From contig CDLV01000005.1 of NCBI GenBank assembly GCA_001244265.2, positions 62,001 to 126,000 of the forward strand: DNA of 64,000 nucleotides, in the 5' to 3' direction. The notes below the pieces were generated by a model. The model made no database searches. It was not told where the DNA came from and saw only the letters and a program-made list of their open reading frames with translations. Origin of the DNA: Microbotryum violaceum. Taxonomy: Eukaryota. Made by a program: the position numbers and the translations under genes. Below are positions 1-60,800 of the stretch, one piece after another (within the stretch, counting starts at the first letter, position 1; each line of letters opens with the position of its first letter).

Positions 1-215
1 TCGGAAATCGCATTTCCTCGGTTCCCAGCTCGGCTGCCAGGATTGCCTTGGGGATAAGTGGGCCGAGCTTCTTTCGATCTTCCGACGGCGAGTTGCACGC
101 GGACGATTAGCACTTGTCTCGCATCGCATTGGGCTCTCTCTTTCCCCATTCCCCCTTTCCCGTTACTTCCTCCCTCTTTCCGCTCCACCCCACACCGCCC
201 TTACATCTCGACACA

Positions 216-2094
216 ATGGCTGGTGGCGATGACTGGGTGTGAGTGACGGCTTCCGTCGGCTCATTGTGGCGCGGTGGCGCGATAAATCGTGCGTGAACAC
301 GATTGACCCCCGCCTCCTCGTCCCGTCGTCACAGTTACTACGCTTACAAGCCGTCCTATGCACTCGGTGAATATGCATTCGGTTTCTTTCTTTCTTTCGC
401 CTTCAGTGCGCGCACTGACTCATTTACCTCCGCGTCGGACCCTCGGGCCGTGCCCTCTCAACTGCCCGCTCTCGCAGCGATCGCGGCTTCGGCTGTGTTT
501 GGCGTCGTCTTCCTCGCGCACTTGTTTCTGATGATCAGACACAAGGCGTGGTATGTAAGCAACGATGCTCCTTTCTCGTAACCGGGATCTTGCCTCGCCT
601 GCACCGCATTCTGGATGGCCCGCGGACGCGCGTCGAACTCATAACAACGACGGATGGCCGATGGGCTCCTTGCTGCACTGCTCCGTCTATAGCCTCGCCC
701 GTCGTTCGACCCGATCATATGAGCGCGCGCCACACCGGTGGGCGCGGCGACCCATCCCGCCGGCGGAGAGCCAACTCCCGCGAGCGCGGGCGCACGTCGG
801 AACCGAGCCCTCTTCCGGTTTCACCTCAGCTCCCGCCGTACACGATCCATAACATCGGACTGCCCCGGCCGAGCGAAGAGCTTCGCTTTGCTTTTCACGG
901 TACTGATCCGTTTCTTCGATCATGATGTACAGATGTGGCCATTCACCGTCGGTGTTGCAGTCAGTACCTCTCCACCCACTTCGGGAACCCCCGTTGAGTT
1001 TGGCCCAGTTCGCTGACCTTGCTCCTTCTGCACCGCACAGGGAGAATGCATCGGATACGCGCTTCGACGAATCTCGGCGGAACACCCGCGAGGACGTAGT
1101 CAAGGACTGATTTGGTACATCACTCAAGAGGTGAGCACCCTCTCACTTCGTTTCTAGGAATTGCAATGGCGGTGGCTCCGGTGCAAGGAACTGATTTTCA
1201 TTCTGGTGACTCGACCCGTCTATAGCTCTTCATCATTCTCGCACCCGCTTGCATGGCCGCATCGCACTACATGTGTTTCGGGCGGCTGATCTCCTACGTC
1301 GGAGAGAAATATTCGCCCGTGCGAGCGCGACGCGTGACGGCGATCTTCGTCTTCTTCGACGTGACCTCGTTCTGCATTCAAGGTGCCGGTGGATCGCTCT
1401 ACTCGAGTTCGAACCGAAGCATCTTCCCTACCGCCAAGGCCATTGTGAGTTGCCGAGCGGGGCTCGTTTTGTTTCGTCCGAACTGACGTCGAGTTTTTTG
1501 TCGCGCTCCCCAGCTCACCGTTGGTTTCTTGATCCAAATCATCTCCTTCGGAATCTTTGCCATTTTCGCCATACTTTGTGCGTTCTCCACCTCACTCGCA
1601 AGAAGCGAAAGCATGTTGCTGACATTTCTTTTGTTCCTGGGCTTCGCACAGATCAAGTCCGTGCTCGACGTGCCGGTGAACTCGAGGGGAAATGGACCGT
1701 GTGCTTGTACACCCTTTACGCGGGCGAGTCTCTCCTTCAAGTCCTTCTCATACCTTGAATGTGCAGCTCACATATTGCCCAACTGTCCCCGCGCTTCACA
1801 GGCACGGCTCTGATCTTGATCCGAGGCATTTACCGTACGATCTCGTTCGCCACCGGCACGGGCAACAGCAATGGCTACCTCCTCTCGCGCGAGGCATGGT
1901 ACTACGGACTCGAGACGATCCCCATTCTTTTGTGCACTTTGTTGTTCCTCGCCTCTTACCCGGCGCGGTACATCCCTTCGGACCGCTCGTTGAGGCTTCA
2001 CCCCGAGGAGGTGAGCAGTGAGACGGGCACGGACGAGGAGAAGAGCGCGGGCGAGGACACGCGCCGAAGGAGGTGGTACGGCCTCAAGAGGTGA
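216..2094 (+). CDS. RTA1-like (lipid-translocating exporter family) multi-pass membrane protein, spliced; paralogue 1
   Basis: Spliced reading MAGGDDWV|YYAYKPSYAL|..HLFLMIRHKAWY|MWPFTVGVA|GECIGYALRRIS..YITQE|LFIILAPACMAASHYMCFGRLI..IFVFFDVTSFCIQGAGG..|LIRGIYRTISFATG..EAWYYGLETIPILL; typical RTA1 motifs and short introns. Confidence 0.9.
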
Positions 2095-2515
2095 TTACGA
2101 GACGCACACAAACTATGCTAGTGTACTTGTACCTCTTTTCCTTGCCGACTGTTTTATGTTGGAAGCTCCGTCTGGGTGTGTTCGCGCTGGTCGAGGAAGG
2201 AAACTTACCGAGATGGAGGCTGTGGATTTGACTCGTCTTGATTATTCATAGGCGACTGCTATGCTCGCTTTGTAAGCACCATATGCAATAGACCGTGCAT
2301 CTTGCTTCGACGGGCGTTCTTGTGCGTTATGGAAGTTCGGAAGCAGGGCGCTCCACCTCTTTCAAGTTGTCCGGCTCGATCGAGGCCGGCCAGGACCCCC
2401 GAAAGCCCAGCCATAGGCGGCCCTCTAAACAACGGCTTTTTTTGAGGCAAAATGTCCAAATTCTTCCCGGATTCTGACTGAGTGAGTCCAAATATGAAGG
2501 CCGCCTAAGCTCGAC

Positions 2516-2536
2516 GCCCCTCCCAAAGGGAGGGGC
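2516..2536. repeat. Perfect 9-bp GC-rich hairpin near the left TIR
   Basis: GCCCCTCCC-AAA-GGGAGGGGC. Confidence 0.7.
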
Positions 2537-2969
2537 TTGTGCCCTCCGCAATTATGGCCCTGAAAAGTGCCCCCCGTGGTGTAGCATGGCATATATTGGT
2601 GCTGTCTGAAAACTGGATGAACAAGTCTTTACTTCATCATTATTGATCGGGCTTCACCGAAACTTGAAGTCTAGGAACTCCGATTATCTCGCTACAACAG
2701 CTTGAATCAACTGATTCCGAACGAGACGCAGGTCGGCGCACGGACCAGTCGTAGTCCAATCCGCGTAGGCTTGAAACCCTGAGTGGCCCTCTCTTATCAA
2801 TGACCATTATTCCACCAAACCGACTTGAAGCACGCTGGGGTGCTTGGTCTCACGAACGTATCCAAGAGACAGATCACGTAACTAGAAGCATCTTTTTCTC
2901 GGGCAGAATCCTACAGAACATGGAGTGAGGCGAGGAAAGAACAAAAACTTCAGACGGTCCAAATCCTCT

Positions 2970-4392
2970 TCACTCGTAAAACCCTTTGAAAGCTTCCCAC
3001 AACCTCTCTTTATCCTTTCTAGCCTCGGCCTCGCACCACTTTGGTTCACCCACATCCTTCATCCTTTGATTCATAAAGTAACTCTTCCCTACTTGATTAG
3101 TCGGCGCTTTAGGATTCGCGGCTAGGTATACGGGGATGTCAGCGAAGGATTGAGGGGTGTTGCCGAGCGAGGTGTAAGTGAGCAAAGGGCCAAAGATGGA
3201 TTGCGCCAACGTGATGGGGTATGGGAAACCTTGGTTCGCCGCGGCTTGGCTGAACGAGTTGGAACAGGACGGGTTATGTAGGAAACGTGTCAGTGATCGA
3301 TGAAGGGTGGCACAACCTTTGGCGAGGCGCGGTCAAGGACCATATGATAATGATGGTGCTCACGTGTGGACGTAGCCTGGGAAGAGATGGACCGCTCGGA
3401 GATGGGGGTACTTTTTCGAAAAGGCCTGTAGTAGGTTTTTGGTAAGACATAAACTCAATACCACCCTCTCCAGCCGAAAGGAAGAAAGACGAGTATCAGA
3501 GGCTTGAAGAGAGAACAGACGAACCGAAACCAGTCCATCCTGGATCGCGCCGTCTTGCTTGGCCTGTTTCATGAATCTCTTGATCCAGCTCATTCCTTGG
3601 TCCTTCAGCTCCAAATCATCCAGAACTGGTGCAGCCGAGTTGGTTCCGGAAGGTGCGCAGACGGTGATCCAAGCTTCTTTCAACGTCTTTGATTCGGCCA
3701 AGAGGTAAGCGAGACCGAAGCGCGAGATGTGTTGGATCGCGAATCGCTTCTCGTGGTCTTCGGTCGTGAGGGAGAAGCTTCCATTTGGAGGTCCACCTAG
3801 AATGTAGTTGGAGGACCCCACGCAAGTCAGCAGTTATCTCACCACTTCGACGAGGAGGAAGACCGAGAACGAACCCTGTGTAGTGATGAGGTAGTGGATC
3901 CCCTTGTCTCCAGCCTTGGTCTTGAGCTCTTCAACGACTTTTTGGACGTTGCTGACGAGTCTGAAGGGTAATCAGAGCAGAATAATCAACCGCCATGCGA
4001 TAATCAGCATGAACTGTTTCGCTGCCGGGGGGGGCGAAGCAGCAAATGGCTGAACAACTGACGAGAGGTCGGCTTGAATGAACTCGTACGTCTTGGTGTC
4101 GGGCGCACCTGCTCCAGCTCCCTTTAACTCTCGCACGACCTCATCTGCTTTTTCCTTGTTTCTGCCGATGATGTAGACCGAGTCTGCACCAGCTTGAGCA
4201 AACCGAATCGCGGTGGCGGCTCCGATCCCCTGAGGTATTCCCCCCACATGTGAGCATGTGAGCAGTCAGCGCCTCCGATCGAGCCTACGCCGGATGGAGA
4301 GTCCTTCGGCGGACCTGTGTACCACCTGCGACGGCGACGTTCTTTCCCGCCAAGTCAAGCCCGACGTTGTTTTGTTTTGCTGTAGAGCTCAT
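2970..4392 (-). CDS. Short-chain dehydrogenase/reductase (NAD(P)-binding Rossmann fold), spliced
   Basis: ATG at 4392: MSSTAKQNNVGLDLAGKNVAVAGGTQ|GIGAATAIRFAQAGADSVYIIGRN..FIQADLS..GIHYLITTQG..RFAIQHISRFGL..HLFPGYVHT..ERLWEAFKGFYE*; GGTQGIG glycine motif spans an intron. Confidence 0.85.
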
Positions 4393-5576
4393 GGCGTTGC
4401 GGGCGGTGTGAATGGCAATCGGCGTTTACTACTTGACGATGACGTCAATCTCCGAGTCCCACCACGGCAATGATCGGGTTCCACGGCCGACGGTGCTGCT
4501 ACTGCGTGTCTGTTGTGTGTGAACACCTGGATCGGGAGGCCAGGTACTATTGCGTGTGAAAAGTGGTGTGCTTGTGCGGTTACCTGCCAATCGCGTGGTG
4601 CGGCGTGGGGGGAAGAGAAGAGCATGGACACATTGGCGTTCCCGAAGCCATCGGCGATCGAGACGAGTCGAGAATTCTGCATTACAAATGTATTAACGCA
4701 CCGCGGGGCGGCGACGAGTCCCTGAACCTCCAGTGCCCTCTATAAAGTCACACTCACAACTATGGCCCGAGGATAGGTACTACCTCCTACTTAGCCGCAA
4801 GCGAATAACCACCGCAAAGACAAGGCTAGAGACTAACGACAAAGTAAACCCACATTCCATTCAATTTCGACTGCATTTCATTTCAAATTTTCTTCTCTGT
4901 CGTATCCTCAATCAGACATTTCTATTTTCGTTTCCGTAATCTAGACGAGGTCCAGGAACCCTTTCTTTCCTCATCATTCGCTTGAGACCAATCAAGCATG
5001 AGCTTTCCCGGTCCTGCGGTAGGCGCCAGCCGGCCAGCCGCGCGTTCCGAAGAGACTTCATTCATGATCCTTGTCGGCGGCCTCTTTCGCCTGGGCGTGA
5101 GCCGGATTCTTGTTGTTGTCAGTGACTGTTGAACGCCAAGTAACCAGACCCGTTAGCCGGTATAAAAGTTTTAGCGGGAAATGCGGGCTTGAACTCATTC
5201 TCATGACCATCGGTGCTTGACAAGTCAATATTCAGCTCGGCGTCCGAACGCTCCGAGTCGACAGGCGAGGCGATGACCCGCCTGGGAGTGAGTCGGGCGG
5301 TCGGCGGGGGCGTCGTCTGGCGTATCATCTGCCGCACATCAGCCAAGGAGAGTCGTCAGACACATGCGATATGCACAAAAGATGAATTCAAGAAGTATTC
5401 ACGTCATTCTGGCCGTGCACGCGTATCCTGAGGGGCACGAAGTTTAGTCGTCCGTGCCATTTGCCGGAAGACCTCAGCTGTCCTTCCAAACGCGAGCCTC
5501 GACGGTGCAGACAATCGCACACAGATCAACATCACCGAGGATGGTGTGTGCAAATTGCCCGGGGTGCCCATCGAGA

Positions 5577-5758
5577 GTCACGGGGAGTGGCGTGGGATAT
5601 CCTTCGGCGCACTTGCAACCAGCAAAAAGCCCCTCCCGGGCAGCCGCATAAAATCGACTGTACTCGGACAGGTCGAGAATGTTGTCCCACGTGGGAACAG
5701 GCAGCGAACCGGTGCCGGGGCCTTGCGCCGAAGGATATCCCACGCCACTCCCCGTGAC
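5577..5758. mobile_element. 182-bp MITE-like foldback inside the Helentron
   Basis: Perfect 35-bp inverted repeat GTCACGGGGAGTGGCGTGGGATATCCTTCGGCGCA at 5577-5611 and 5724-5758; no clear TSD. Confidence 0.6.
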
Positions 5759-7383
5759 GTTTGAGGATGCAGTAACACGAATGCTCGACACGGGAGATGT
5801 CGTTTTACACACCGACCTGGGCTCTGCAGTGGATCGTAGTCTCCATGCCACGTTGTCGAGGCGTTGGGGTGGGAGGCAGTGTGAGAGAGTCCCTGAAATT
5901 GGCAAGACTGTCAGTACGAAGGTCACATGCAAGTTCGGTCCGGGGAGAGAGGAGTCAGCTGCGTGGGGGAAAGTCGCCGAATCGCCGGCAGTCGCCGGCT
6001 TGAGCGTCCCGTACACGGTACAACCCTCCGAGAGCGTCGAGTGTCGCCGGCATTTCGTGATCCCGAACCGAAGTGGGAGAATTGTTGTTCCGGGTAGCCG
6101 CCCCCTTACTACAGTTCACTCGGGCCGATGTTCAGTCCGTTCCCCGATTCTCCAACCACGCCTGGTATCTCTTTTCCGTGTCGGAAGCAAGCTTTTCAAG
6201 GCGCTTCAATTCCGCTTGCAGGGCCTCATCGTCCCGTTGCTTTTTCTTGCTTGAGTGGAGCAAGGTCGCATCCAGTTGGCCAAATAAAACCAAGTCTTCA
6301 CTCCTCCTCACTCGGGACAGCATGACGTACCGAACAGGAAGCGACGCCGTTGAACCAAGGCACGCAACAATTTTTCCCAGAGTCTGAACCTGCACTTTAT
6401 AGTCAGTTAGAGCATAAGCTGGCTGCAAAGGTACCTAAAGAGCTTCAGGGATTAACGCGCCCCCGGAGGGGGCGACGGGTCCCTGAACCTCTGACGGAGT
6501 AACACCGACTGACAACGTCAGCTATATTACTAAGAACGTGCCATGGATCGGGTATGCAGCACCGAGTTTCCGAGTCAGTTCGGTTCACATGAATGAGACG
6601 TGGAGCTGTGCCAAACTTTAATGAACTTTGCAGACAACGAGATCGAGCCAGAGCCGGGCCGGGGTGTAAATGCATAAGTTGAGATCACTTGACATCGCCC
6701 ATGTCAATCGCCCATGTCACAGTCCGCGTCTGGAGTTTGTGTTCGCAAATGGTCGTCAGCGCCGGGAACCCACATCGCGCGCTCACCGAAGTCAGCTAGA
6801 AGAAGTGGTTTCAGTTGAGTTGAGAGATCGCGACTTCCGGAAGCGACTTGGGCGCGAGACGGCTTGGCTAGGCGTGGTGAATGTGTCCACCGCTGAGAGA
6901 CATGGGAACCAAATGGCATGGGGTGTCAGTATTCCCCCACAGATCTTTCACAGTGGGAAAAGCGTTGCAACCCACGATTAGATGACTTTTTGTCGTTGGC
7001 CTAAACTGTATCTGCTTAGTCGAGAAACTCGTCCTTGATGCGCCCACTGCAAGGGTGAGGTACCTCGTCATCGCAACGGTGAGTGTAAATCTGCCAGGTT
7101 GACGGTGACGAAGAGGGTGTACATACTGAATGCGTTGACGTATCCGCGGATCTCATTCCTCATGTCGAGCATCTGCGCAGTTGTGCCGTGAATCTTGTCT
7201 CCGACACTTTGCAATTCCGCCAGAATACGGTTGATATGCTTCTCTGCTTCTGTTGTTGCCTTGTACCTTTTCGTGTCCTTGGATTTTTTGATCATTTCGG
7301 ACACAACATCCATGTCGTTTTCGAGCAGTGCTGCTGCGATTCGAGCCACCTTCTCTTTGAAGACCCGACAAGCAACTCGCTTG

Positions 7384-7533
7384 TCACCCCTCCTGAAATG
7401 GGAAGATCCCGAGATCGGGCCCCCGATTTGAAATCGGCGGAGCGATTTGAAATGCATTCCAAATCGGATGCGAGATTTCAAATCGGGGCCCGATCTCGGG
7501 ATCGTCCCATTTCGGGGGGGGGGGGGGGGGGGG
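7384..7533. mobile_element. About 150-bp MITE-like palindromic insertion in the Helentron Rep ORF
   Basis: Near-perfect inverted repeats of about 50 bp (CCCCTCCTGAAATGGGAAGATCCCGAGATCGGGCCCCCGATTTGAAATC versus GATTTCAAATCGGGGCCCGATCTCGGGATCGTCCCATTTCGGGG); TTG on both sides (7381-7383, 7534-7536). Confidence 0.7.
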
Positions 7534-9819
7534 TTGCTATGGAGTTGGCGAAACACTTCTCCTCGGCGGAGCATGTTCAAGACGACGAATGGGAAAGACG
7601 GGTCGCATCGAAGTCGCTGTCGTATAGGTTAAGCAAATGTTTGATGAGTTCGTCCAGAGAAATCTTGAGGTCGCGTTCGACACAGAAACCGACGAGACCA
7701 AATGGATCGTGGTGTGGCCACAGCTTTGAGAGAGCACGAGCTCGTCCGAAGGTTCCTGGCCCAAAGCTGAGGGGCGTCGCCTGTCGGAATGACATAGGTG
7801 GGCTTGTCCTGGTTGAGATAACGAAGAGCTTTCTCAAAGAGCAGCCATGAGTGAACTGGTTCGTCTGTAGGGGGTGGCGGCACATGGACGTGTTCGATTA
7901 CTGCTTCATGCGTTGTTGCGTAGGCTTCAAAGAGCGATGATGTTGGGTCTACTGTCTCTGCGGTCACCACATTCGCCAAAACTACGTCCGGCACGAGACT
8001 GTCTCCATCCGCTATTCGTCGATCCGATACTTGGGGAGCAACCCAGACGGAAGCCGAAGTCAAAGTGGAAACTGAAACCGCCGTAGAAGCTGGAGAGGTC
8101 GGGTTGAGCGCACCCGGGCCGGAACTGCGTCGAACGAGCTGTGCACTCGCCATCAAAGGAGACGGCAGAGTGCGCCGAATTCTTGCTTTCGTTGATCAAT
8201 TACCCGAGAATATTTTTGGATCCGACACTGCTTCACGATCATGGGTCGACACTTGTCCAGCTCAGCAAGGTTGGAGCTCCCTCCGCAGAATAAAACGCAA
8301 ACACTGTCAGCGAGTTCCTCGACTGACATGGGCAGTACATCGATGAACGAAGCGGTGTTCTGGCTGAAGACGAGGGTGTTTTCGCGCGTAGGTTCTTGTT
8401 GAGCTTTCGGGATTTCCGAAACGAGTTAGCTTGTACACGATCTTGTAGGCTCTGGCGCGCGCAGTGACGAGGTGCTCAAGCTGACTCGCGTTGGAGAAGC
8501 AATCTCAGACATCAGCGGGGACGTGATCCAGTGCGCGATAAAATCCGTTGTTCAACGACCGAGGGGGCTTAGTCGGTGGCCCTGTAGTAGGGAACAACCG
8601 TTTGAAGCAGTCTGGGCGCACTGAAGCGTGTTGTTCGTGGGCGAGTACGCGATCTGATCGATTAAAGAGTCGCTCGGTCGATGGAGACGTCGGGGATGGA
8701 TGAGCGCGCCCCGTCAAAAAATCGTAGGTCGGAGGTCCGTCCGTAGTGTAGAGTTGGTTAATTCCCTCCAAATCCCTGATTTCTCACGCTTGATGTCGTC
8801 TTCATGCACGCATCGTACGTTATGCCCGAAGACTCTCTCGGAACACACCCGGCAGCAGGAGAGTCGGGAACGAGCGTCGGTGAAGTAATCATTTCATTCA
8901 GAACGGTTCTCGGTCTTGAACTGATCGGATGCTGGCGCAAAATGCGATTTCACTCTACCGGGATCTTCTTGTTCGGGTTCGGGATGCAGCGGTGGACATC
9001 TGTGCAGCGTTTTTTTAGGGTCCTTTGCTGAGGCGTTCTCGCGATTCTTCTGGACTTCCTCGTTCAGTCAGGCTCGAAGCACGTCAACAGGTTTTGATGC
9101 GTATGCTCTGTGGTCGGAGAAGCAATGACGACGTGGCGGAGTCACGGGACTCGCCACTTGTTGCCTTCTGAAAACATATCCATTTGAACAAGCATTACAG
9201 TTGGGATCGCACGACCAAAGGAGCGCTTGTAGGGATAGCTCTTTCGCAAGCGGGTTACTCCTGGAGTATCCTTCCACGTGGTGCGCCCGAAAAAGCTCCT
9301 TCAGGAGATCCATGCTGAAGTTGATGATGCTGCACACGAGCTGCCCAAGACTGCATTTGACAACCACATCATCGAGTGCTGACATTGGACTGTTGCGTAA
9401 GAGCGGACCGGAATACACATACTGTGCTTGATCGGTGCGGCGGGAGGATCGGCTGTCGCTATGGTGGAGGCGAGGCTTAACACGTCGAGATTCGAGAGTT
9501 GTGGTCGATGGTGCGGAGGTATACAAGATCAGAAAGCAGTGACATGACGGCGGTTGCGTGAGAGCCTGTCTTGGAGATGCGAGAAAACTCGGTCCAAGTT
9601 CGAACAAGGCAGTACAAAAGACGGAAAGGAGAGGGCCGGTGGCAACTTGCCAGCGGAGGCCAGCCTGAGTGCGCTAGCTTGCGCTTGTCTGCGTTGGTAG
9701 TGCCCTCTGGCGCGGGGATTCGGGGAGGTTCATGACGCCCAAGCTGCGCGCTGAGTGCGCCGACTCGGCGGGTTAGCAACCGGGCTCGTAGCCACTGGCC
9801 ATTGAGTATTAATGATTGG

Positions 9820-12376
9820 TGCGCTTAGCCGGGGTCCTCCTATCCGGGGGAGCATTATTGTTTTAAGTTTTATGTTCATCCGTAATACTATTGCAAGGTT
9901 CGACGATGGTCAAACCGGCGACGATATCTACGCAATCGATCAGCTTCGAGCGATGAATCTTGCGAGACGAGCGTGGAACGACATCCGCCCCGAGACGATT
10001 GGTGGAGGAGAACCAGCGTGGCCAATTCTCCTCCAACTCTTCGGCAATGACCAGGTCCACAATCTCCCGATCGGTCATTTCAGCCCCACTAGCAAGGTTC
10101 TCCTCCTCCACATCGAGGGAGCGTGGATACTCATCTTCTCGTTGCTCGTAACTATCCCCTTTTCGACCAGCTCATCGTTCGCCGTCTTTAGAGCGTTCAT
10201 CGCGTTGATGATGCCGCGATCGCCATCAAGAGGCCCGCGACCGTTGGGAAAAGGTGTGTGGTCGGTCGATCCTTTGTTCTTGCGATCAGACAAGATTTGA
10301 GCGTGGCGTCAGCAGTTGGCAATCGTCTCGGGGCGGATGCCGTTCCACGCCTGTCTCGGAAGATTCATCGCTCGAAGCTGATCGATTGCGTAGATATCGT
10401 CGCCGGTTTGACCATCGTCGAACCTTGCAATAGCATTACGGATGAAGCTATCAAGCAGAGTGCATCATCATTGATCAAATAGGTTGGAAAACAGTCTCAA
10501 ACCTCGGGACTCACCTTCTGCGATATTTTGCCTTAAAGTTCGCAATGATTCCTTGATCGAACGGCTGGATTTTTGACGTCATATTGGGTGCAAAGTAATG
10601 AACTCCGATGTTGGTGATGGAATCAACATCCCTCGTGTGTCCCGAAAAGTTATCGAGCCAGAGTTGCACTTTTCGGCCCTTGCTGCGAAGCTCGAGATCC
10701 CGGGCTTTCAACCATTCGACGTAAAGCTCGCCAGTCATCCACGCGTGCTTGTTCGATCGATAGTAATGATTGTGGTAGCTGGCTGGTTTTTTGTTGATGC
10801 TACGAGGCTTCGCCGCGCTACCAATGATGGAGAGAGGGAGCCGTTCCGGTCCATCGGCGTTGACTGTGAAAGCGAAGGTGATGCGAGTCTTATTCATCTT
10901 GACACCATTTCGACCGTTCCGAGCAAGGCCCGTAGACGGACGCATAGTGTAGAAGAGACCGGGTTTTTCCATGTTGAAGATATCACTTGGATCGTATTTG
11001 TTCGTAAGATCAACGACTCTTTTGCGCTCCTCTTCGAGCGTTTTCGCATCGACCTTCTCGCCTTCGCCATGGAACTTGTAAGAGCGAAGATTGTGTCTAG
11101 ATTCACAAAGAGGAAATTCAGACACTGTAGAACGGCTGACTGGAACAAGAATCACGCGAGTTCCTTTTTTGAAGCCCTGAAGCCAGCCGTTCGAAAAGGC
11201 GAAATCCCGAACCTCGAGTTTGTCGGCAAGTTTGTTGACCTTTCAGGCGCAATACATCGGTGGTGATGGTAGTGCTCTGCTCGAGAGCTTGATTAAACCA
11301 GATTGCTAGCGCCTTTTCCAGGTTCGGGTGAATGACACTGTTGTTGCGCCGAATGCTTCCTTGACCGCTTTCGAGAAGGGCGCGATGCTCGTCTTCCTCT
11401 TTGCGCCATTGTGTGAGCTTTGGCTGGCTCCAGATCGGGATGTCTCGGTGGTTTGGTGAATTTTTGAAATACTTGACGATGGCCGTGAGCGTCAACTTGT
11501 GCCGTTTTTGATAGTCAAGGACCTTGATAATCTGCGCGGTGGTTGCCGCGCCCTTCGCTTTCGGTCCAGCTTTTGAGGCTTGGGCTTAGCCTTTTGTGAC
11601 GATATCGAGGCTGAAATCGAGCCCTTTGTATGTCGAGAGAGGGCTTGAGGGATTCGCTTTGTTGACGTTTTTTTTTTGGAGGCGACGAGGTCAGGTCGAG
11701 CATGGTGACCTCATTCGCGGCGGCCCGTGCGCCCGACTCCTCTCGGCAAGGCTTCAGAGGCGGCTGTGAACGTGCCACAGACATCATCAGAAGGTCTGCA
11801 ATGCAGCAAGCGATCAGTATGTAAATGAAAACTTAGCGGTGGGAGAGGTCCATCCCTTTCGAGTTCAACCAGGTGCTTGCGATACGCGTCCCTTTCGGCG
11901 CGATAGGGGGCGAATTGAGGATCGGCGGTGAGTTGCCCATGACGATCCTCAAATTCCGGGAAGGGAATGAGACCATGATGATATGAAGAGGAATTTCTGA
12001 TGAGGGCTTCTCGGATTGTGAAGAAGTTCATTTCGGCGTCATTGTCGGCGGAAGAGGAGAGAGAAGCACGTCGCGACTAGCCTGTCAACGTATCAACCGC
12101 CGCCTTTGCTCTCCTGTGCTCCCGTCTCGGCTGTTTCGGGGCATTTCGGACTCTTCCGGCAGGCGGCTCGTCAACAAGAACGCCGAAGGAGAGGCCAATT
12201 CCTAATCAACCGCTCATTTTCGGCTCTCTCTTATCTTATTTTTTGACCTGTAAACCCATCAATCATAAGGTATACGATTGGACTGGTTCTGTCAGCCAAA
12301 AAGGTCGGGAGATTGAAAAGTTCATAAATTTTGACAGGTATAAGATTGGCGATATAAATTTTCTCAGGTCTGACTG
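9820..12376 (-). mobile_element. pogo/Tigger-like Tc1-mariner transposon (CENP-B-type HTH plus DDE_1), frameshifted
   Basis: HPNLEKALAIWF (HTH), DIFNMEKPGLFY..KTRITFAFTVNADG..SNKHAWMT..LWLDNFSGH..PNMTSKIQPFDQGIIANFKAKYRR; TA-CAGTCAGACCTG terminus on the minus strand at 12376; GT-AG intron at about 10449-10515. Confidence 0.85.
9875..10446. repeat. About 125-bp inverted duplication of pogo transposase coding sequence
   Basis: 9875-10001 (+) and 10320-10446 (-) both encode FIRN(T/A)IARFDDGQTGDDIYAIDQLRAMNL..AWN.IRPETI. Confidence 0.85.
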
Positions 12377-12777
12377 TAGCATCATTTTCGAGGCTGGGAC
12401 CCCCCCATATTTCTTACAGCAAATGCAGACACTACTAACCCGCTCCAAACGCAAACAGCGCGCCGCTGGGCCGGCTATGCCCTGCGCCTCCAGCCGATCC
12501 AGCCTCCCGCTACCCTGGTCTGCGCTTCAAAGTTCAACCGGAGGGAGGAAAATGTTCAAAAATGAGGTGAGCCTTGACCCATCATGAGCCACAAAATGTC
12601 CAAATTCGCGGGCTGCCTAGCCGATTTTCGGGTCCCCAGAATGTTCAAGTTTTGCGGGCCGCTTCTGGCTGGGCTTTCGGGGGTCCTGGCCGGCCCCAAG
12701 CGAGGCGGTGCGCCACATCCCCCGCATCCGACGGTGCACGCCTTCCTCTTCACAACGACTCACCGCCACCCTCGATC

Positions 12778-13512
12778 ATGCGGGATGCACCACCGGCATA
12801 CACACCAGCACCAATCCCTCGCGATGCCCGAATCCATCGTACCAAAGCCAGCCTGTTGAGCCTGCCCGAACCGATCCTGTTGCTCATCATCTCGCACTGC
12901 CCCGTCTCCACAATCGCCTTCAGCCTTCGTGCTACATGCCACAAACTCTTCACCTACGCCCTCTCGGTCCTCCGATCCGTCTACCTCCCACTCTACGCGT
13001 CTCTAGTCCAAGCGCCCAATACCTCGTCGCCGCTGTCGCCGCCATCGTCTCGCGAACGCAAGGTGTTGGACCTGTTCATCCTCGGTCGAAGTTGGGTCGC
13101 GAACGAGCAAAGTGCGAGCGAATTGCTCCTCTCATCAAGGACCGAATGGTCACCTGATGAATCGCAAGCCGGTCTAGAGCGAGACATTTTCAATTTCCTA
13201 CAACCCAAAGCCAGGACCGAGGACCTCGTCATTGATCTTCTCTCCACCAAGTGCTCGGAGACCGACCTCGATCCAAATCTCATAAAAGATCTCAAACTCG
13301 TCCTCACGCGATCGCAAGTGACCCTGACACTACCTTGGCGATCCTCGAATCTCGAGACCAAGCGCAAACCCGTTGATAAGGTGATATTTCAGGTCCCCAC
13401 GAGGCAAGGAGAATTGTTGGAACGGCTCGCGAGAAGGATAGCGAGTGAGTTCACGTCGGGTAGGGTGAGGGTACGTAAGGATTGCATGATGGGTTGGTAC
13501 GATTGGGCGTAG
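12778..13512 (+). CDS. F-box domain protein
   Basis: LLSLPEPILLLIISHCPVSTIAFSLRATCHKL F-box motif; uninterrupted ORF from ATG 12778. Confidence 0.8.
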   Translation: MRDAPPAYTPAPIPRDARIHRTKASLLSLPEPILLLIISHCPVSTIAFSLRATCHKLFTYALSVLRSVYLPLYASLVQAPNTSSPLSPPSSRERKVLDLFILGRSWVANEQSASELLLSSRTEWSPDESQAGLERDIFNFLQPKARTEDLVIDLLSTKCSETDLDPNLIKDLKLVLTRSQVTLTLPWRSSNLETKRKPVDKVIFQVPTRQGELLERLARRIASEFTSGRVRVRKDCMMGWYDWA

Positions 13513-14523
13513 CTATCGAAATAGCTCGGATGAAGAGTCCATAAGGTTGTAACCCTATCCGGGTTTTCGCAATCGACATTCGAAAACCTCGATGCGGCAA
13601 AACCGTAGCTTGGCACTTTGTCCGCGATGACGGAGTTGAAAAAGTCGGAGCACCATGTGACTCGGAGAGGCACAGTGTGAGGGGCAAGGCACACTCTTGC
13701 GACGTCGATCGTTATCGCAAGCGAAGATCGCCTCAACTAGCACTCGAAGGCTGTGTCCGCCGCTTCTGGGAGCCTTGGACAACACGGTCGGCGGTATTTG
13801 ACTGGCGGCGACGACGGTCGCGCATTCTCGTCGCGAATTCCTCTCGGCCTGAACGACGGCCACCGGTACCTCTCGCGCATGCCAAGCCCTTCCTGCAGCT
13901 GGTCAACGACCGAGATTTTGCGGTATTGTCTAGGTGATAGGGTGATAGATGTCTAGGTGAGGGGAGGAAGAGTGCAAACCGCGAGGCAGTTGTAACTTTT
14001 GACTGATCCTGGGCTGAAATTTTGACAATCATCAGTGCAGATACTCGTTTTCGTAAGGGTGCCGCGAATTTTGGTCACGTGCGTGGCAGGCCTGGTCCTC
14101 TTCGGGCAAACGGGTCGCCAACGAAGAGTAGACGTCTCCAACGGTTTCCGGGGACGACTTCGGAGCACCGCCAACGAATGCCTACTCAACCATCCTCTTC
14201 TAAAACAGATGCCATCGACTGCAGATCTCCCTGTTTGTGTCGCAGGCGATGTCCAAATTTGCTCGCAAATAAATCGAGGTCTTGGGCCCGCGCTGGCTCG
14301 CTCGCTGCTCGGGCATTTGCTCGCTCTCGCGGGCGCGCAATCGTCGACGCGGGTGGACAAGTCGCTCGCCACGGACAGTTTTTCGGCGATGGCCTCTCGA
14401 GACTCGACAAGCAACACCTCGAAGTGGCGAACAAGGAGACGGCTTTCTCTCCTTCACATCACATCTCTCTCAAGCTTCACATTTTCCTTTGTCTCCCCCT
14501 TCCTTGTTATCGACTTTGCCACC

Positions 14524-17256: not shown

Positions 17257-17507
17257 AGAGCGGGGAGAGGTTCCCCGAGCGTACGATGAACGGAGGGGGA
17301 CGAGGAAGAACATCCTCAAGACGAGTAATGTATACACACTAGTTTGAACCCTAACCAGAGAGTGAGTTTGTGAATTCCACGAAAAGAAAGAAGAGATTTT
17401 TAACAACATGCACAAAAGAAATAGGGACCAAACCCCCCCCCCCCCTGACAACAAAACTGCGACCAATCTAATTTTTCTGACCCCGCGCATCTTGACGCAC
17501 GCCCCTT

Positions 17508-56170: not shown

Positions 56171-59100
56171 CAGGACCCCAGAAAGCCCAGCCAGAGGCGC
56201 ATGCGGAAAAAAGCCCTTTTTTGGCCTTTACTACCTCTCCATATAAAAAGGTGAGTTAAGGAATGTACCTAAAATCGCTGTTTTTAACTGGGTTGGCCGC
56301 CTATGGTGGATGTACCAGCATACTGTTGTGTCTGCCGCACCTGCCTGTGGTGTCGGGGTTCCGATCAGAAGTCATGTACAAGCCCAGTGGTGACTTTTGT
56401 ATTTTCCGCGCCGTTCCAACGAAGCTACAGCGCTCCCAGTATTTTCCTTATTTTTTTCGCTCACATAAAACAATGCTTCCACTCATATTTCATTTAATGA
56501 ACCGCAAGCGCGTGGCTTTGCATGATATTGCTTCTACAGCAGAGCTCTGCCTGACGTGCGAGGCGAGGGCTGGCGTTTGTCACGTGATGCGGTGCGCCGG
56601 CGGTGGAGTGTCATTCCGGCAGTCGACCAGCGGCATTAGGGGCTGAACAACAAATCAAACCATGTAAATAATCCTGCGCCACTCCCTCGAACCTTTCCTT
56701 TCTCCCTCCCACTCTCATCCAATTTTAGTGACACTCATTCAAGAACAAACCTTCGCTTCTGTGTAATGCCCCGGTCCCAAGGTCGCCAGGGAGGGCCATC
56801 GCAACCTCGCCAAGTCTTGGGCGCGAGGATAGCGCCGTACCATGGGCCAGCTCGAGCGCCCGCTGCTGGGCGCCCCGCGGCTCGACCCTCCTCTTCGTCC
56901 CGCTCCGATCAACAGAATCAGCCCCCGCGCGTCATGACAACAATGCAACCGATCTTGGCATTGCGACACGTATACGAGCCCGCCGTGCAGCTGTGCAGAA
57001 CGGACAGCGTCGTCAGCGCGATGGCCAACTCGACGCTGGGCTCGCCCCACCACCACCTCCGCAAAGGCGAGTGCGCCGGGCTCGAATCGCGCTCAAACCC
57101 CTCAAGCCCCACGTTTTCGCAGGGCAAGGTGCAGCTACCTCCCCCTCCCCAGCCCAATCTCGAGTATCGGCAGCTTCTTCAAGGCTCGGATAGCGGCCAG
57201 TTGCTCCGTCCAACAACATTCGTCTGCAGTATGGCCCACATGCTGAACTGTTCGACCCACCTACACAGAAGTTAAGGCATTCCGGCGTTCCGCGAGAATG
57301 CCCGGTCGTACAACAACGCGCTGTCGTTCACTTCGCTCGCTGGCTGCCCACTTTGACCAGACTCGACCAGGCACTCAAGGACCACGCGTTTTTGCGTTTT
57401 TGGTTGCTTTTACCATCGACTCGCCGCCCTGATTCCTACCGTCGATCAATGTCCAGCCTTGGCCCAGATATGGCTCATCGACCGGGCCGAGGCCACTGAC
57501 ACTCGACTGGGACCCGACGGCGCAGACAGTCGCATGCAACGATCTACTTTGACCAAGCTCGAGTCCATCCTGCGCACCGGCAATCGCTTTGTGAGAGAGT
57601 TTGCACCGGCCAAAGCTCGCGCAGGTTGGGATACGGCCAAAGAGTGGATCCTGCGCCTCTGCCTACCACCAGGCCGAGACCGACGCACCCACAACCTTCC
57701 TACGTCAAGCACGGAAATGGCGATGCTTATCTGCGATTCCGACACCAACACGGGAGATCGTGGACCGCAAGACCTTATTCTCCAGGTGCACGGTGATCAA
57801 TGTCCCGATGGTCGGCCCAAGTACCAAATCGTTAGCTCGCTCCATCCGTCCGCGATGCCTCTCCGCTACCCACTACTTTTTCCTGCACGGGAAGATGGCT
57901 TCCACCCCAACATTCCTCTTTGCGGGGTTCCACCAAGCCAGGCCGCCAATCGCCAGAAACTGAGAGCAGATCGACAATGGTGTCCAATTGCGCGAGGTAC
58001 TTGCCGGTCTCGGTCTGGATGACGAAGACGAACAGGAGGACGAAGACCGCGACAATGAGGATGAAGACGGCGAGGAAGGGGACGAAGAGGATGGTGATGG
58101 CGAACGTACGCGTCTTCGGCTCTTTCTCTGATGTTCCATTCTGTGTAAGGCGCAAGCACAGACTGACATTGAACTTTTGAACACCTAGGACGAAGGTCAA
58201 GTAAAGGGGTCGAGGTCGAGGTGGCGAGTCTCGCGTTCACAATTCTTTACTACTTGCCAAAGGCGACGAATACTTCTCAATCCCGCATTGCACCCAACGT
58301 CCCTTCCTGGAGTTTGTGATTTACGGATGTACTCCCAAGTCAAGACCGATTGACTCAACACATCCGGTTGCATCAAGAGAACCTACGCCTCACCACGACA
58401 CAAAGCATCAACGGCTTGACCCCGAACCAAATCGCGACATCACGCAGCGATACCAGGATGCGATGGCGTGCGTTGTCAAACATGGAAAGCCTCCGCTGCT
58501 CATCACTATGACGTACGACCCCGACTCACCGGAAATCAAGGCTGCACTGGGGCCGATAAAGCATGCAACCGTTCGGATCTCATTGCACAAGTGTTTGAAG
58601 CCAAATCCGGCAACAAGCGACATACAGGCTGTTTCGGCGATGAATGTAGGATGTGTGGATTTGTTTCTTTGCTGTACTTCGTAGGGTGTTTTCTTAACCT
58701 TTGCGCTGATATCATGTAGACTGTTCGATTATCTTGCTATTTATTGAATTTCATCCTCCCGTTAATTTAACGGGTTCCCACCGGTTTTGTCAAAGTTTTT
58801 TACCCTATTTTGGCCCCAAAATGTCAAAATTTCACATGCGCCTCTGATATATTATCAAAATGTGTTCTACATGCTCCAAAAATCGCTCAAAAGTCCTCGA
58901 AAACGCGTTCCGAGCGTTTGCGCGCGGCGGCCGATCGAAAGTGGCTTGCGGCGCGCGTCGCTTCGGCAGGTGTCGCGCGTGGCTCCAGGCTTCATACAAG
59001 CCTTCCCTGCTTTGCTGGCTGGCTCGCTGCTTCGTTGTCAGACTTCCTTTTTGCTGAAGTTGAGCTCCTTATTTACGCGGTGGCATTTGTGCGGCTTGTA

Positions 59101-60800
59101 GAGGTTCTGCCGGCGGCATCTCGCAGGCCGGGCACGCTCCGAAGGGTGGCAAACCTTTGCTCGGCATGTGCGCTCGTGCTGATTAGGCACTTGTCCGGGC
59201 AACATGAGGTGAGGTCCGTGGTTGGACGATATGTAGTCGTTGACGGGCCTAATGACTCGATGACCTGTCGACCATCAATCATGCGGAACGGCATAGTGCC
59301 ATCAATGAGGTGTGTGGAATAGCATGTTTTCTTGATGAGGTGAAGCTCCTGTACGACGACATTTGAGAGTAGAACCAACGAGGCGAGCGTGTCTTGGTTG
59401 CAGTGGTTTGTTGTCACTTTGCTGTAGATGTATCGCACTGTAGGACACAAGACTTGTGTCAAACGAGAACTTCACAGCTCAACTGCCATTCAAGGCATCG
59501 TACCAATTCCAATGAACAGCACTTCTTCTCCATAGGCAGTTTGATCGCAGCTGATTGAATGCATGCCACGCTTGAGGCCAAAGCAGACCAGAGATCCGAT
59601 CTCCGATGTTGTGGTAGTGGTTACAGCTCCGCCGTCAAGCGATCCAAAATGAGGATAGCGTTGTGCTAGTGCTCCGTCTGCTTGTTTCTCCAAACATTAG
59701 ATCCAGTTGCCTTCGCTCCTAAATTCAGCGACAACTCACTTGAATGCGGCCATCCTCAGTATAGACATTCTTCTGGATCCTCGTGTGTTGTGAGCGCTCG
59801 GTCCATCTGGTCACCTCTAGTCCAGCGAAAGCTCCTTGTCGTGCCCGCCATGTCTTCGCAGCGAGATGGTCCCATGGACTGTACCAACCCTTTCAAGACG
59901 CATGAATGTGCTGCACTGCGTCCTTCCTCTGTATTGCTAACCCCTACGCCTGCCTCTCCGCGAGTTGGGTCGCTCGATTCCATCGGCCTCCCTTGAGTAG
60001 AACAGCTTGAGGTGGCTACACTTATGAGCAGCTTGATGGGCATTCAGGTTGGCCAGTTCAGCGAGAAATTGGTATCGCGAGCATCGACAACTTGAGGCGG
60101 AAGTTTCAAGTTTGTGGGCTGTGTAGAACTGAACACGCGTGAGCTTAGACCAAAATTTCGATAGTTGAGCTTGGTAGACGCACGATTGGTCGTGAGAAGC
60201 TGTTTGCCTTCTCAACGGCATCGAGTAGATGATAAGGTCGAGTACTGGGTGTGCTCGTCTTTGGACAACTCGATGTGAAGAGACGCGTCGGCGGGAGCGA
60301 CATCGAAGGCGAGGAGCTCGGCGATCGTCATGTTCATGTTGGTGAGCGGCGATAATCAATCGAAGGTATCGTTCAAATAGTAGGCCTGCATGGGATGATG
60401 TTGTCGTGCTATGCTCCAATCTCGGACCGAAGTGAAGCGGAACGGAACCTGCGCCCCTTCAATATCGAATCGGCCTAATCCCTCACAGCCACTTAACTCA
60501 AGTGATTACCGAAGATGGCTAGTACTAAGTGACTTGTTCAGGCGCGAGCATCGCTAAACGCGTCTCGAAGCGAAGGCGAACGGGCCCAAAGTCATGCCGA
60601 AGGTTGCTCAGGGTAGGCCAAAATTGGGCCGACTCACGGGAAAATGTCAAAATCTGGACATGCGCCTCGGGGGCGAAACGTGTGTTTCGTCCCAAAATGT
60701 CAATTTTTTGCAATGCGCCTCGACGGTTTTCAGGATTTTGGGTCCTCAAAATGACAAACAAAAAAAAAATGCGCCTCCGGCTGGGCTTTCGGGGGTCCTG
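56171..60800. mobile_element. Second member of the CAGGACCCC TIR family, enclosing a Helitron fragment and unidentified decayed sequence
   Basis: 32-bp inverted repeats at 56171-56202 and 60769-60800 (30/32 identical); subterminal AAAATG(T/A)CAA..ATGCGCCTC units at 60641, 60694, 60748 and 58818; no TSD. Confidence 0.6.
56900..58610 (+). mobile_element. Degenerate canonical Helitron (Helitron_like_N) fragment, 3'-truncated
   Basis: FRENARSYNNALSFTS, AQIWLID, THNLPTSSTEMA, LHPSAMPLRYPLLFP..GFH, QRYQDAMACVVKHGKPPLLITMT..PEI; multiple frameshifts. Confidence 0.85.

What the first reader, a model, noticed from the sequence alone, without database searches (positions are those of the whole stretch)
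2385..12694. Candidate gene-carrying TIR transposon with an intact SDR cargo gene
Seen: 33-bp TIRs (31/33 identical) starting CAGGACCCCC, with GCCGGC directly outside both ends and related subterminal motifs. Removing the nested Helentron and pogo leaves about 2.6 kb that holds an apparently complete, intron-containing SDR gene and no recognisable transposase. The right end lies about 90 bp upstream of the F-box ATG. Established: Pack-MULE and Pack-CACTA elements capture host genes, and a 6-bp TSD does not match hAT (8), MULE (9-11), CACTA (2-3), PIF (3) or Tc1/mariner (TA). Inference: a non-autonomous element of an unassigned superfamily that moved a whole metabolic gene. Caveat: GCCGGC is palindromic, so it may be part of the TIR rather than a TSD.
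Basis: partly seen in the sequence, partly recalled or inferred. Interest (0 to 1): 0.8.

Follow-up and report, generated by a model that had tools for sequence, protein, structure and literature searches.

The report
Gene-carrying TIR transposon in anther-smut fungus
A 10-kb jumping-gene insertion in the anther-smut fungus Microbotryum holds an intact extra copy of an ordinary dehydrogenase gene whose original still sits elsewhere, a known kind of event (gene capture by a DNA transposon) that is rarely seen so cleanly in fungi.

Summary
The 33-bp inverted ends (31/33) at 2391 and 12688 are real. They recur at 56171/60800 and belong to a multi-copy family. GCCGGC flanks both ends.

The window matches Microbotryum lychnidis-dioicae: the SDR is MVLG_05833, 314 aa, 5 introns. 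By locus tags, RTA1 and the F-box-like gene are neighbours in M. saponariae and M. intermedium, where the single SDR lies 63-76 tags away. M. lychnidis-dioicae and M. silenes-dioicae each have two intact SDR copies, one inside this element and one on another contig.

So the block is one insertion holding a DNA-level duplicate made before those two species split. That core has about 0.85 confidence.

Which vehicle carried the gene is not shown:
- the TIR element (my preference, about 0.45)
- the Helitron-like element whose 3' end abuts the SDR segment exactly (about 0.3)
- repair or circular DNA (about 0.2)

The "unassigned superfamily" argument is weak. There is one usable flank pair, the second copy has no duplication, and 6-bp duplications are known (hAT6, IS3EU). 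"Helentron" is not shown, only degenerate Helitron-like remains.

Verdict: new member of a known kind, moderate interest.

The parts
216..2094 (+). RTA1-like gene (MVLG_05834), left neighbour
   Evidence: tblastn of P0028; Pfam RTA1 5.9e-54; orthologues Msap g04101 and Mint 4991
2385..2390 (.). GCCGGC, left copy of the putative 6-bp target-site duplication
2391..2423 (+). left TIR (A-type)
   Evidence: 31/33 to the right TIR
2391..2772 (+). left end shared with other family copies (summed contig depth 14-29 times that of the flanks); holds the AAAATGTCCAAAT motif at 2449
   Evidence: read laying depth bins and loose end at 2766
2780..4694 (-). SDR segment: duplicated host DNA with about 300 bp of 5' flank, the whole gene and its 3' flank
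   Evidence: about 2x depth in X1 and X15; joints at 2780 and 4692-4695; X15 second contig leaves at 2899
2970..4392 (-). SDR gene MVLG_05833. Exons 4392-4315, 4229-4063, 3960-3875, 3796-3525, 3425-3364, 3249-2970 (stop included)
   Evidence: read; equals P0001 (314 aa); Pfam adh_short 6.8e-13 over the N-terminal half
4695..6455 (-). Helitron-like remnant E1; 3' end TTAACGC plus GC-rich palindrome at 4694-4713; weak PIF1-helicase C-terminal remnant at 6135-6434
   Evidence: direct repeat 4697-4730 / 6458-6491; sequence; PDB PIF1 hits E 0.014-0.023; joints at 4692-4695 in 3 of 4 runs
6456..9615 (-). Helitron-like remnant E2 with a Helitron_like_N fragment at 7071-7628; 7-bp perfect hairpin stem at 6458-6474
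   Evidence: Pfam 5.3e-07; high summed depth
9616..9809 (.). 194-bp stretch that other copies replace by 4 letters
   Evidence: joint 9615->9810 in X12 and X15, 9616->9810 in X1
9810..12080 (-). degenerate pogo-like element (DDE_1 10514-11242, HTH_Tnp_Tc5 11121-11585); inverted 127-nt duplication 9875-10001 / 10320-10446; limits approximate, no TIRs found
   Evidence: deletion form 10318->11952 in all 4 runs
12080..12655 (+). right end shared with other family copies; motif at 12593; inner limit approximate
   Evidence: depth and other-letter table
12656..12688 (-). right TIR (A-type)
12689..12694 (.). GCCGGC, right copy of the putative target-site duplication
12778..13512 (+). F-box-like gene (244 aa), right neighbour; ATG 90 bp from the element
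   Evidence: tblastn P0026 100%; orthologues Msd g12371, Msap g04102, Mint 4990; no Pfam family
56171..60800 (.). second family member (B-type ends, 30/32) with a Helitron_like_N fragment at 58205-58681(+); no flank duplication

Best explanation
Window 2391-12688 is one old insertion of a composite, non-autonomous TIR DNA transposon into the roughly 380-bp spacer between an RTA1-like gene and an F-box-like gene of Microbotryum lychnidis-dioicae. It belongs to a multi-copy family with CAGGACCCCCGAAAGCCCAGCC termini and directly oriented subterminal motifs.

Its interior has no transposase of its own. It is filled with degenerate Helitron-like and pogo-like DNA plus a 1.9-kb piece of host DNA. 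That piece is a complete DNA-level duplicate of a conserved SDR-fold gene, with about 300 bp of 5' flank and all 5 introns. The parental copy stays on another contig.

Shown: the ends, the flank repeat, membership in a multi-copy family, the intact gene, two copies in two sister species, and neighbour status of RTA1 and F-box in two outgroup species.

Inferred: the element acquired the SDR segment as filler DNA (template switching during gap repair after excision, as proposed for Pack-type elements; recalled) near the parental locus on the same chromosome. It then carried the segment to this site, mobilised in trans by an unseen autonomous relative. The event falls after the split from M. saponariae and before the split of M. 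lychnidis-dioicae and M. silenes-dioicae. The copy has since been kept intact, partly homogenised by gene conversion.

Odds: core statement (one TIR-bounded insertion that holds a transduplicated SDR) about 0.85. The TIR element as the vehicle about 0.45.
For: Ends. 31/33 TIR; the 22-mer occurs 4 times against 0 in shuffles. A-type ends pair with each other and B-type ends with each other beyond the shared 22-mer.

Flanks. Identical GCCGGC on both sides, P about 3.7e-4.

Multi-copy family. Summed contig depth of 2401-3000 and 12001-12600 is 14-29 times the flank depth in 4 of 4 runs laid (the tool warns that this is not a copy number).

Identity. The SDR exon is 100% identical to MVLG_05833, and my gene model equals P0001.

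Gene order.
- M. saponariae: RTA1 g04101, F-box g04102, SDR g04178.
- M. intermedium: RTA1 4991, F-box 4990, second RTA1 4989, SDR 4927.
- M. silenes-dioicae: RTA1 g12360, SDR g12361, F-box g12371.

Two copies per species. MVLG_05833 and MVLG_00657; C048g12361 and C016g08084. All are 314 aa and intact.

Timing. 5 sites group the copies by locus, all in the last 20 residues, against 2 that group them by species. The duplication therefore predates the species split, with conversion in the 5' part.

Support from runs. The SDR region has about 2x depth with two variants of equal depth in X1, and two diverging contigs in X15.

Filler. The Helitron/pogo filler next to the right end recurs as a composite in other copies: joint 9615->9810 in 2 runs, 9616->9810 in a third, and 10318->11952 in 4 of 4. 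This fits TIR elements that move with foreign filler.

Context. M. intermedium is reported to have no TIR elements (passage of PMC10502011).
Against: Only one SDR-bearing copy of the element is evident (2 SDR copies in all, one of them parental), so there is no sign that the loaded element ever moved again.

The SDR segment's promoter-side limit (4694) coincides exactly with the 3' end of a Helitron-like element. That coincidence points to a Helitron or to a break at its end.

The other limit (about 2772-2780) is not at any recognisable element end.

The second family copy in the window has no flank duplication, so the TSD rests on one case with a palindromic 6-mer.

The flanks of A are themselves inverted-symmetric (16/20).

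No autonomous copy or transposase was seen.

Neighbour status in the outgroups is read from consecutive locus tags, not from DNA.

The element copies carry more private amino-acid changes (2 and 8) than the other-locus copies (1 and 1), so constraint on the cargo may be relaxed.
Confidence: 0.5

Rival explanations
1. Helitron vehicle. A Helitron-like element lying upstream of the parental SDR missed its 3' terminator and copied the gene downstream of it (3' transduction / end bypass; mechanism recalled). The composite then landed inside an already resident TIR element, which is only the landing pad.
For: E2, E1 and the SDR gene all lie on the minus strand in a head-to-tail row. The SDR segment starts at the base after E1's 3' end, which is TTAACGC plus a GC-rich palindrome, repeated at 6456 for E2. 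Joints at 4692-4695 in 3 of 4 runs mark that point as an element end. Helitrons are the most expanded DNA transposons in this genus (passages of PMC4469406 and PMC10502011). Gene capture by fungal Helitrons is reported (PMC4289320, listing and abstract start only).
Against: No hairpin-plus-terminus like those of E1 and E2 is seen at the distal end of the SDR segment (2773-2780). In X15 the contig shared by both SDR copies stops at 4679, before the Helitron end, which hints that the parental locus does not continue into E1; a single base difference would give the same stop. Family sequence does not resume across the block: the loose end after 2766 is found nowhere in the window, so this is not a clean insertion into a canonical element.
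Confidence: 0.3
2. Passive landing pad. The TIR element (with or without its Helitron/pogo filler) was already in place. The 1.9-kb SDR segment was pasted in by double-strand-break repair or by integration of a small circular DNA, perhaps at a nick made at the Helitron end.
For: X1 holds a single-copy contig that joins 4694 to 2780, the end of the segment to its start. X15's second SDR contig leaves the window copy at 2899, not at 2780. Together these fit a circular or permuted intermediate. The left junction shows 7 letters of unknown origin between family sequence and the segment.
Against: One contig in one run. A tandem duplication in that strain, or a look-alike of 2780-2898 upstream of the parental gene, would give the same joint. 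There is no direct evidence for a circle.
Confidence: 0.2
3. No single element. Two unrelated family ends happen to bracket a resident SDR gene.
For: The second pair of ends in the window (56171/60800) has unrelated flanks, and its right flank is a truncated aldehyde dehydrogenase (Pfam from profile position 141).
Against: Identical 6-mer flanks (P about 3.7e-4). Both ends are of the same sub-type. RTA1 and F-box are tag neighbours in two outgroups, whose SDR lies elsewhere.
Confidence: 0.03

Closest known systems
hAT-mediated transduplication of histone H3 in Pyrenophora tritici-repentis and Pseudocercospora fijiensis (PMC6710886; passages read)
   Same: A fungal TIR DNA transposon with a whole host coding sequence between its ends, and the original gene kept elsewhere.
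   Different: There the vehicle is an identified hAT with an 8-bp TSD, the copy is intron-less (a captured transcript), and it was amplified to tens or hundreds of copies, mostly RIP-inactivated. Here the superfamily is unknown, the copy keeps 5 introns and its own 5' flank, only one loaded copy exists, both copies are intact in two species, and the host is a basidiomycete.
Pack-MULE / Pack-CACTA elements of plants (recalled, no call)
   Same: Non-autonomous TIR elements whose interior is host-derived DNA and other filler, with a TSD and no transposase.
   Different: Pack-MULEs mostly carry gene fragments and have long MULE TIRs with 9-11-bp TSDs. Here there is a complete gene, 33-bp TIRs and a 6-bp (or 8-bp) flank repeat.
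Helitron gene capture, e.g. HELPO families of Pleurotus ostreatus (PMC4289320; listing and abstract start only)
   Same: The host gene lies directly 3' of a Helitron-like 3' end on the same strand.
   Different: The whole block is bounded by TIRs and a flank duplication, which rolling-circle elements do not make. No Helitron-type terminus is seen at the far end of the SDR segment.
IS3EU and hAT6 families with 6-bp TSDs (PMC12730594; passages read)
   Same: 6-bp TSD. For IS3EU, TIRs longer than 30 bp and presence in Pucciniomycotina. For hAT, a CAG-type terminus (recalled consensus YARNG).
   Different: IS3EU ends are given as TAYGG..CCRTA, whereas here they are CAGGA..TCCTG. No transposase is available to place the family. 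hAT5/hAT6 are said to sit among animal hAT lineages.

Membership tests
Transduplicating (Pack-type) non-autonomous TIR element | Terminal inverted repeats shared with a multi-copy family | tested here: met
   31/33 TIR; 4 ends in the window; 14-29x summed depth of both ends in 4 of 4 runs
Transduplicating (Pack-type) non-autonomous TIR element | Target-site duplication flanking the pair of ends | tested here: inconclusive
   GCCGGC on both sides of copy A; none at copy B; family-wide TSD not testable without the genome
Transduplicating (Pack-type) non-autonomous TIR element | Interior derived from a host gene whose parental copy lies elsewhere | tested here: met
   MVLG_05833 against MVLG_00657, and C048g12361 against C016g08084; single copy in two outgroups
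Transduplicating (Pack-type) non-autonomous TIR element | Empty site in relatives | tested here: inconclusive
   Consecutive locus tags for RTA1 and F-box in M. saponariae and M. intermedium. This is gene order only; no DNA of the empty site was seen.
Transduplicating (Pack-type) non-autonomous TIR element | The loaded element itself has transposed (further loaded copies, or capture shown to precede insertion) | tested here: not met
   Only two SDR copies per genome, one of them parental; about 2x depth
hAT superfamily | 8-bp TSD | tested here: inconclusive
   6 bp if the termini are CAGG..CCTG. 8 bp (GGCCGGCC) only if the termini are AGG..CCT. 5 of 6 ends seen have the C, which favours 6 bp.
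hAT superfamily | hAT transposase (dimerisation domain, BED or DUF659) in an autonomous copy | not testable with these tools
   No such domain in the ORFs scanned from the two copies and their flanks; no genome held
IS3EU | 6-bp TSD, TIRs longer than 30 bp, termini TAYGG..CCRTA (PMC12730594) | tested here: inconclusive
   6-bp repeat and 33-bp TIR are met in copy A; the termini CAGGA..TCCTG do not match
Helitron / Helentron (the nested elements) | Rep (Helitron_like_N) and PIF1-type helicase | tested here: met
   Helitron_like_N 5.3e-07 at 7071-7628; weak PIF1 matches, E 0.014-0.023, at 6135-6434. Both are fragments.
Helitron / Helentron (the nested elements) | Helentron-specific endonuclease domain | tested here: not met
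   No endonuclease family in any ORF scanned
Helitron / Helentron as the outer element | No TSD; insertion at AT or TT | tested here: not met
   The outer flanks are C|CAGG..CCTG|G with a 6-bp repeat
Tc1/mariner-pogo as the outer element | TA target duplication | tested here: not met
   No TA at any of the 4 ends. The DDE_1 ORF belongs to a nested, degenerate copy for which no TIRs were found.
Short-chain dehydrogenase/reductase (the cargo) | Rossmann fold with a TGxxxGxG-type motif; catalytic Ser-Tyr-Lys | tested here: inconclusive
   adh_short 6.8e-13 covers profile positions 1-108 of 195 only; GGTQGIG is present; no YxxxK seen by eye

The most novel reading that the evidence does not exclude
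Microbotryum may harbour a so far undescribed family of TIR transposons with CAGG termini, a 6-bp duplication at palindromic GC-rich targets, and directly oriented subterminal motifs. Such a family would routinely move with kilobases of foreign filler and can duplicate complete, promoter-bearing host genes that then persist as working paralogues. The SDR segment may have passed through a circular, permuted intermediate (the 4694->2780 joint).
Probability: 0.15. Interest if true: 0.7.

Novelty: new member of a known kind. Interest (0 to 1): 0.45.

Why it matters
Whole-gene duplication by DNA transposons is well documented in plants but rare and mostly degenerate in fungi, where RIP-like defences destroy repeats. 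Here both copies of an ordinary metabolic gene have stayed intact, with signs of gene conversion, in two sister species of a fungus that has a RIP-like process.

The locus is a clean natural example of TE-associated gene duplication in a basidiomycete. It also gives a handle on an uncharacterised TIR family in a genus used as a model for TE accumulation on non-recombining chromosomes. The element ends 90 bp from the start codon of the neighbouring gene, so it may also have changed that gene's promoter.

Tried and rejected
Whole genome: none is held for this window, so no genome-wide pairing of ends or TSD table was possible.

Earlier findings of the scan: nothing for this genome, sequence or relatives. 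The word search returned only unrelated prokaryote and virus items.

Metagenome scan for the 22-mer TIR: 0 stretches.

Empty site in sequencing runs: among the joints listed for the 4 runs laid (15 shown, 6 more not shown), none joins about 2390 to about 12695. This is a blank, not evidence. Only X15 record 22 bridges a junction by the tool's 31-letter rule. The other junction contigs reach 16-29 letters into the element.

Expression: no RNA holder listed.

Loose-end letters of other copies were searched for in the window. There were no matches apart from 2 near-self matches, so the canonical interior of the family is not in the window.

Pogo TIRs: the best inverted match between the presumed pogo ends is 11 nt, so no limits could be set.

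Rfam and tRNA scans of the window: 0 hits each.

The Helitron_like_N fragments of the two copies are not alike, so a shared 'TIR plus Helitron' architecture was rejected. The motif orientation relative to the Rep frame also differs.

The outer element as Helentron/Helitron2 or as pogo was rejected on the flanks.

The joint 2414->12651 (21 letters on the short side) could not be interpreted. The two ends of A share a 30-mer, which also explains why contigs stop at 2413 and start at 12666.

Literature: 'Microbotryum' plus 'transduplication' gave 4 papers, none on this by title. The locus tags MVLG_05833, MVLG_00657 and MVLG_05834 occur in 0 papers. The TE consensus libraries in the supplements of PMC4469406 and PMC10502011 could not be seen and may already hold this family.
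Full report
1. THE OBSERVATION

The inverted ends are real. 2391-2423 and 12656-12688 are 31/33 complementary, and 36/40 if extended. The first 22 bases, CAGGACCCCCGAAAGCCCAGCC, occur four times in the window at up to 3 mismatches (2391+, 12688-, 56171+, 60800-) and never in 100 shuffles.

GCCGGC lies directly outside both ends of the first pair. Two random window positions share a 6-mer with P of about 3.7e-4.

The second pair (copy B, 56171-60800, 30/32) has other letters at those places.

A motif AAAATGTCMAAAT sits near both ends of both copies, always on the + strand: 4 matches against 0.10 expected.

The two ends of copy A agree with each other beyond the shared 22-mer (..GCGGCCC), and those of B with each other (..GGCGCAT). 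The ends are therefore of matched sub-types.

2. CONTENTS

Pfam scans of stop-free ORFs (23 ORFs of the interval) find only these:
- adh_short at 3975-4265(-)
- Helitron_like_N at 7071-7628(-)
- DDE_1 at 10514-11242(-)
- HTH_Tnp_Tc5 at 11121-11585(-)

The SDR gene reads ATG 4392 to stop 2970 on the minus strand, with six exons and five GT-AG introns. The model equals the public protein P0001 residue for residue.

ORF 6135-6434(-) has weak matches to the C-terminal part of PIF1 helicases (E 0.014-0.023).

A 34-nt direct repeat (4697-4730 and 6458-6491, 82%) is preceded in both places by TTAA and holds a GC-rich palindrome, with a perfect 7-bp stem at 6458-6474. It marks two Helitron-like 3' ends on the minus strand. 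Reading them as 3' ends is my inference.

No endonuclease domain was seen, so 'Helentron' is not shown. The pogo copy is degenerate: it has a 127-nt inverted duplication and no recognisable TIRs.

3. WHAT ORGANISM, AND THE KEY COMPARISON

The longest SDR exon is 100% identical to MVLG_05833 of Microbotryum lychnidis-dioicae p1A1 Lamole. The nearest others are M. saponariae at 96% and M. intermedium at 88%, then other Microbotryomycetes at 49-61%.

| Gene | M. lychnidis-dioicae | M. silenes-dioicae | M. saponariae | M. intermedium |
|---|---|---|---|---|
| RTA1-like gene left of the element | MVLG_05834 | C048g12360 | Chr2-1g04101 | BQ2448_4991 |
| SDR in the element | MVLG_05833 | C048g12361 | none | none |
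| F-box-like gene | window protein P0026, no tag shown | C048g12371 | Chr2-1g04102 | BQ2448_4990 |
| Second RTA1 paralogue right of F-box | at about 14.5-15.9 kb of the window | C048g12372 | not listed | BQ2448_4989 |
| SDR on another contig (parental) | MVLG_00657 | C016g08084 | Chr2-1g04178, only copy | BQ2448_4927, only copy |

In the two outgroup species, RTA1 and F-box carry consecutive tags. The only SDR lies 76 and 63 tags away on the same contig or chromosome.

In M. silenes-dioicae the SDR is tag-adjacent to RTA1, and ten tags separate RTA1 from F-box.

The 90% cluster of the SDR holds exactly four proteins, two per sister species.

The caveat is that it rests on tag order, not on DNA. 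A passage of PMC10502011 says that M. intermedium has no TIR elements and almost no Helitrons.

4. AGE AND STATE OF THE DUPLICATE

All four copies are 314 aa without breaks.

Five sites, all in the last 20 residues (296, 300, 301, 304, 308), group the copies by locus. Two sites (85, 89) group them by species. The duplication is therefore older than the split of the two sister species, and the 5' two-thirds have since been homogenised within species.

The runs agree:
- In X15 one contig of double depth covers 3438-4679. Two single-depth contigs cover the 3' part. One runs on to 2729 as in the window. The other leaves at 2899 into 4.5 kb of other DNA.
- In X1 two variants of equal depth (216 of 445) differ at intron positions 3800-3856.

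The element copies carry more private amino-acid changes (2 and 8) than the other-locus copies (1 and 1), so constraint on the cargo may be weaker.

5. THE FAMILY AND THE FILLER

Laying contigs of four coded runs on window 1-18000 gave the following.
- Summed depth is flat at the level of single contigs for both flanks.
- It is 14-29 times that level for 2401-3000 and 12001-12600.
- It is about twice that level for the SDR region in X1 and X15.
- It is 7-37 times that level for 4200-9600, and 2-5 times for the pogo core.

The tool warns that this is not a copy number. I use it only to say 'multi-copy'.

Other copies leave the window's left end at about 2766-2772. They go on with letters found nowhere in the window. 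The canonical interior, and any transposase, is therefore absent here.

The filler next to the right end recurs elsewhere as a composite. 9615 is joined to 9810 through four letters in X12 and X15, with 9616->9810 in X1. A form lacking 10319-11951 occurs in all four runs. This fits TIR elements that multiply with foreign filler, although a Helitron vehicle for that composite is not excluded.

6. WHICH VEHICLE CARRIED THE GENE

The SDR segment runs from about 2780 to 4694. Its promoter-side limit is the base next to the 3' end of Helitron-like element E1. Its other limit lies 7-8 bases from the point where family sequence stops.

Joints 4692->12348 (X15, X16) and 4695->12327 (X1), on opposite strands, have a short side of 31 or 41 letters. 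This fits the E1 side (4692-4722, one k-mer, the point where X12's contig ends). I read them as another E1-like 3' end beside another family right end, not as SDR junctions.

Three readings remain:
(a) The TIR element took up the segment as filler and carried it here.
(b) A Helitron transduced the gene and landed in the element.
(c) Repair or a small circle pasted it into a resident element.

For (b): the exact abutment and the shared strand.

Against (b): no Helitron-type end at the far side, and the X15 contig break at 4679, which is weak evidence.

For (c): a single-copy X1 contig joins 4694 back to 2780, and the second X15 copy leaves at 2899.

For (a): the whole block is bounded by matched TIRs and a flank repeat, sister copies move with filler, and donor and target lie on one chromosome in the outgroups.

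I put (a) at about 0.45, (b) at about 0.3, (c) at about 0.2, and 'not one element' at about 0.03.

7. SUPERFAMILY

- It rests on one pair of flanks. Copy B has none, and its right flank is an aldehyde-dehydrogenase fragment that starts at Pfam profile position 141, which suggests rearrangement.
- The 6-mer is palindromic, and A's flanks are inverted-symmetric for 20 nt (16/20; 10/14 outside the 6-mer, P about 4.4e-4).
- An 8-bp reading (GGCCGGCC, termini AGG..CCT) is possible. It is less likely because 5 of 6 ends seen have the C.
- 6-bp TSDs are described for hAT6 and for IS3EU, the latter with TIRs over 30 bp in Pucciniomycotina (passages of PMC12730594).

The termini CAGGA..TCCTG match neither the IS3EU ends given there nor, fully, the hAT consensus (recalled). 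Without a transposase the family stays unplaced.

An odd detail: GGCTCGA stands at the same distance (-18 to -12) outside the left ends of both A and B. That 7-mer occurs 20 times on both strands of the window. It hints at a target preference or at a longer, degenerate end.

8. COMPARISON AND VERDICT

The nearest described cases are the hAT-borne histone H3 copies of Dothideomycetes. Those have an identified hAT, an 8-bp TSD, intron-less copies, many copies, and are mostly RIP-inactivated (passages of PMC6710886). Plant Pack-MULEs are also close (recalled).

This locus differs in four ways:
- It keeps introns and its 5' flank.
- There is a single loaded copy.
- Both paralogues are intact in two species.
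- It lies in a basidiomycete with a RIP-like process aimed at TCG (passage of PMC10502011).

Searches for 'Microbotryum' with 'transduplication' (4 papers, none on this by title) and for the three locus tags (0 papers) found no description. The TE libraries in the supplements of PMC4469406 and PMC10502011 could not be opened.

I rate it a new member of a known kind, interest 0.45.

Noticed in passing
window 56171-60800: Second member of the same TIR family (B-type ends, 30/32). It holds the N-terminal part of a Helitron-like ORF (Helitron_like_N at 58205-58681+) and four subterminal motif units. There is no flank duplication. Its right flank is an aldehyde dehydrogenase that begins at Pfam profile position 141, and no N-terminal part was seen in the window.
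   Followed up: partly
window 2371-2390, 12689-12708, 56151-56170: The flanks of copy A form an imperfect 2x20-nt palindrome around the insertion (16/20). GGCTCGA stands at -18..-12 outside the left ends of both A and B. This suggests a target preference or a longer degenerate end.
   Followed up: partly
window 216-2094 and about 14524-15935: Two RTA1-like paralogues bracket the element plus the F-box-like gene. The same order (RTA1, F-box, RTA1) is implied by tags 4991/4990/4989 in M. intermedium, so the RTA1 pair is old.
   Followed up: partly
window 2780 / 4694 (run X1): One single-copy contig joins 4694 back to 2780, the end of the SDR segment to its start. It could be a tandem unit, a circle junction, or a permuted parental locus.
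   Followed up: no
window 9875-10001 and 10320-10446: A 127-nt inverted duplication (96%) of pogo transposase C-terminal coding sequence. A form lacking 10319-11951 is present in all four runs laid.
   Followed up: partly
window 5577-5611/5724-5758 and 7387-7423/7485-7521: A perfect 35-nt and a 92% 37-nt inverted repeat lie inside the Helitron-like region. The centre of the second (7426-7467) differs among runs, as for a small foldback insertion. 5729-6231 is covered by single-depth contigs in all four runs, although it lies inside repeats.
   Followed up: no
run X16, ends 12687 and 2391: In one run a family right end and a family left end lie only 12 letters apart, and that right end lacks the final G.
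   Followed up: no
window 56309-56356 and 26352-26399: A 48-nt match (90%, opposite strands) between the left part of copy B and an unrelated place of the window.
   Followed up: no
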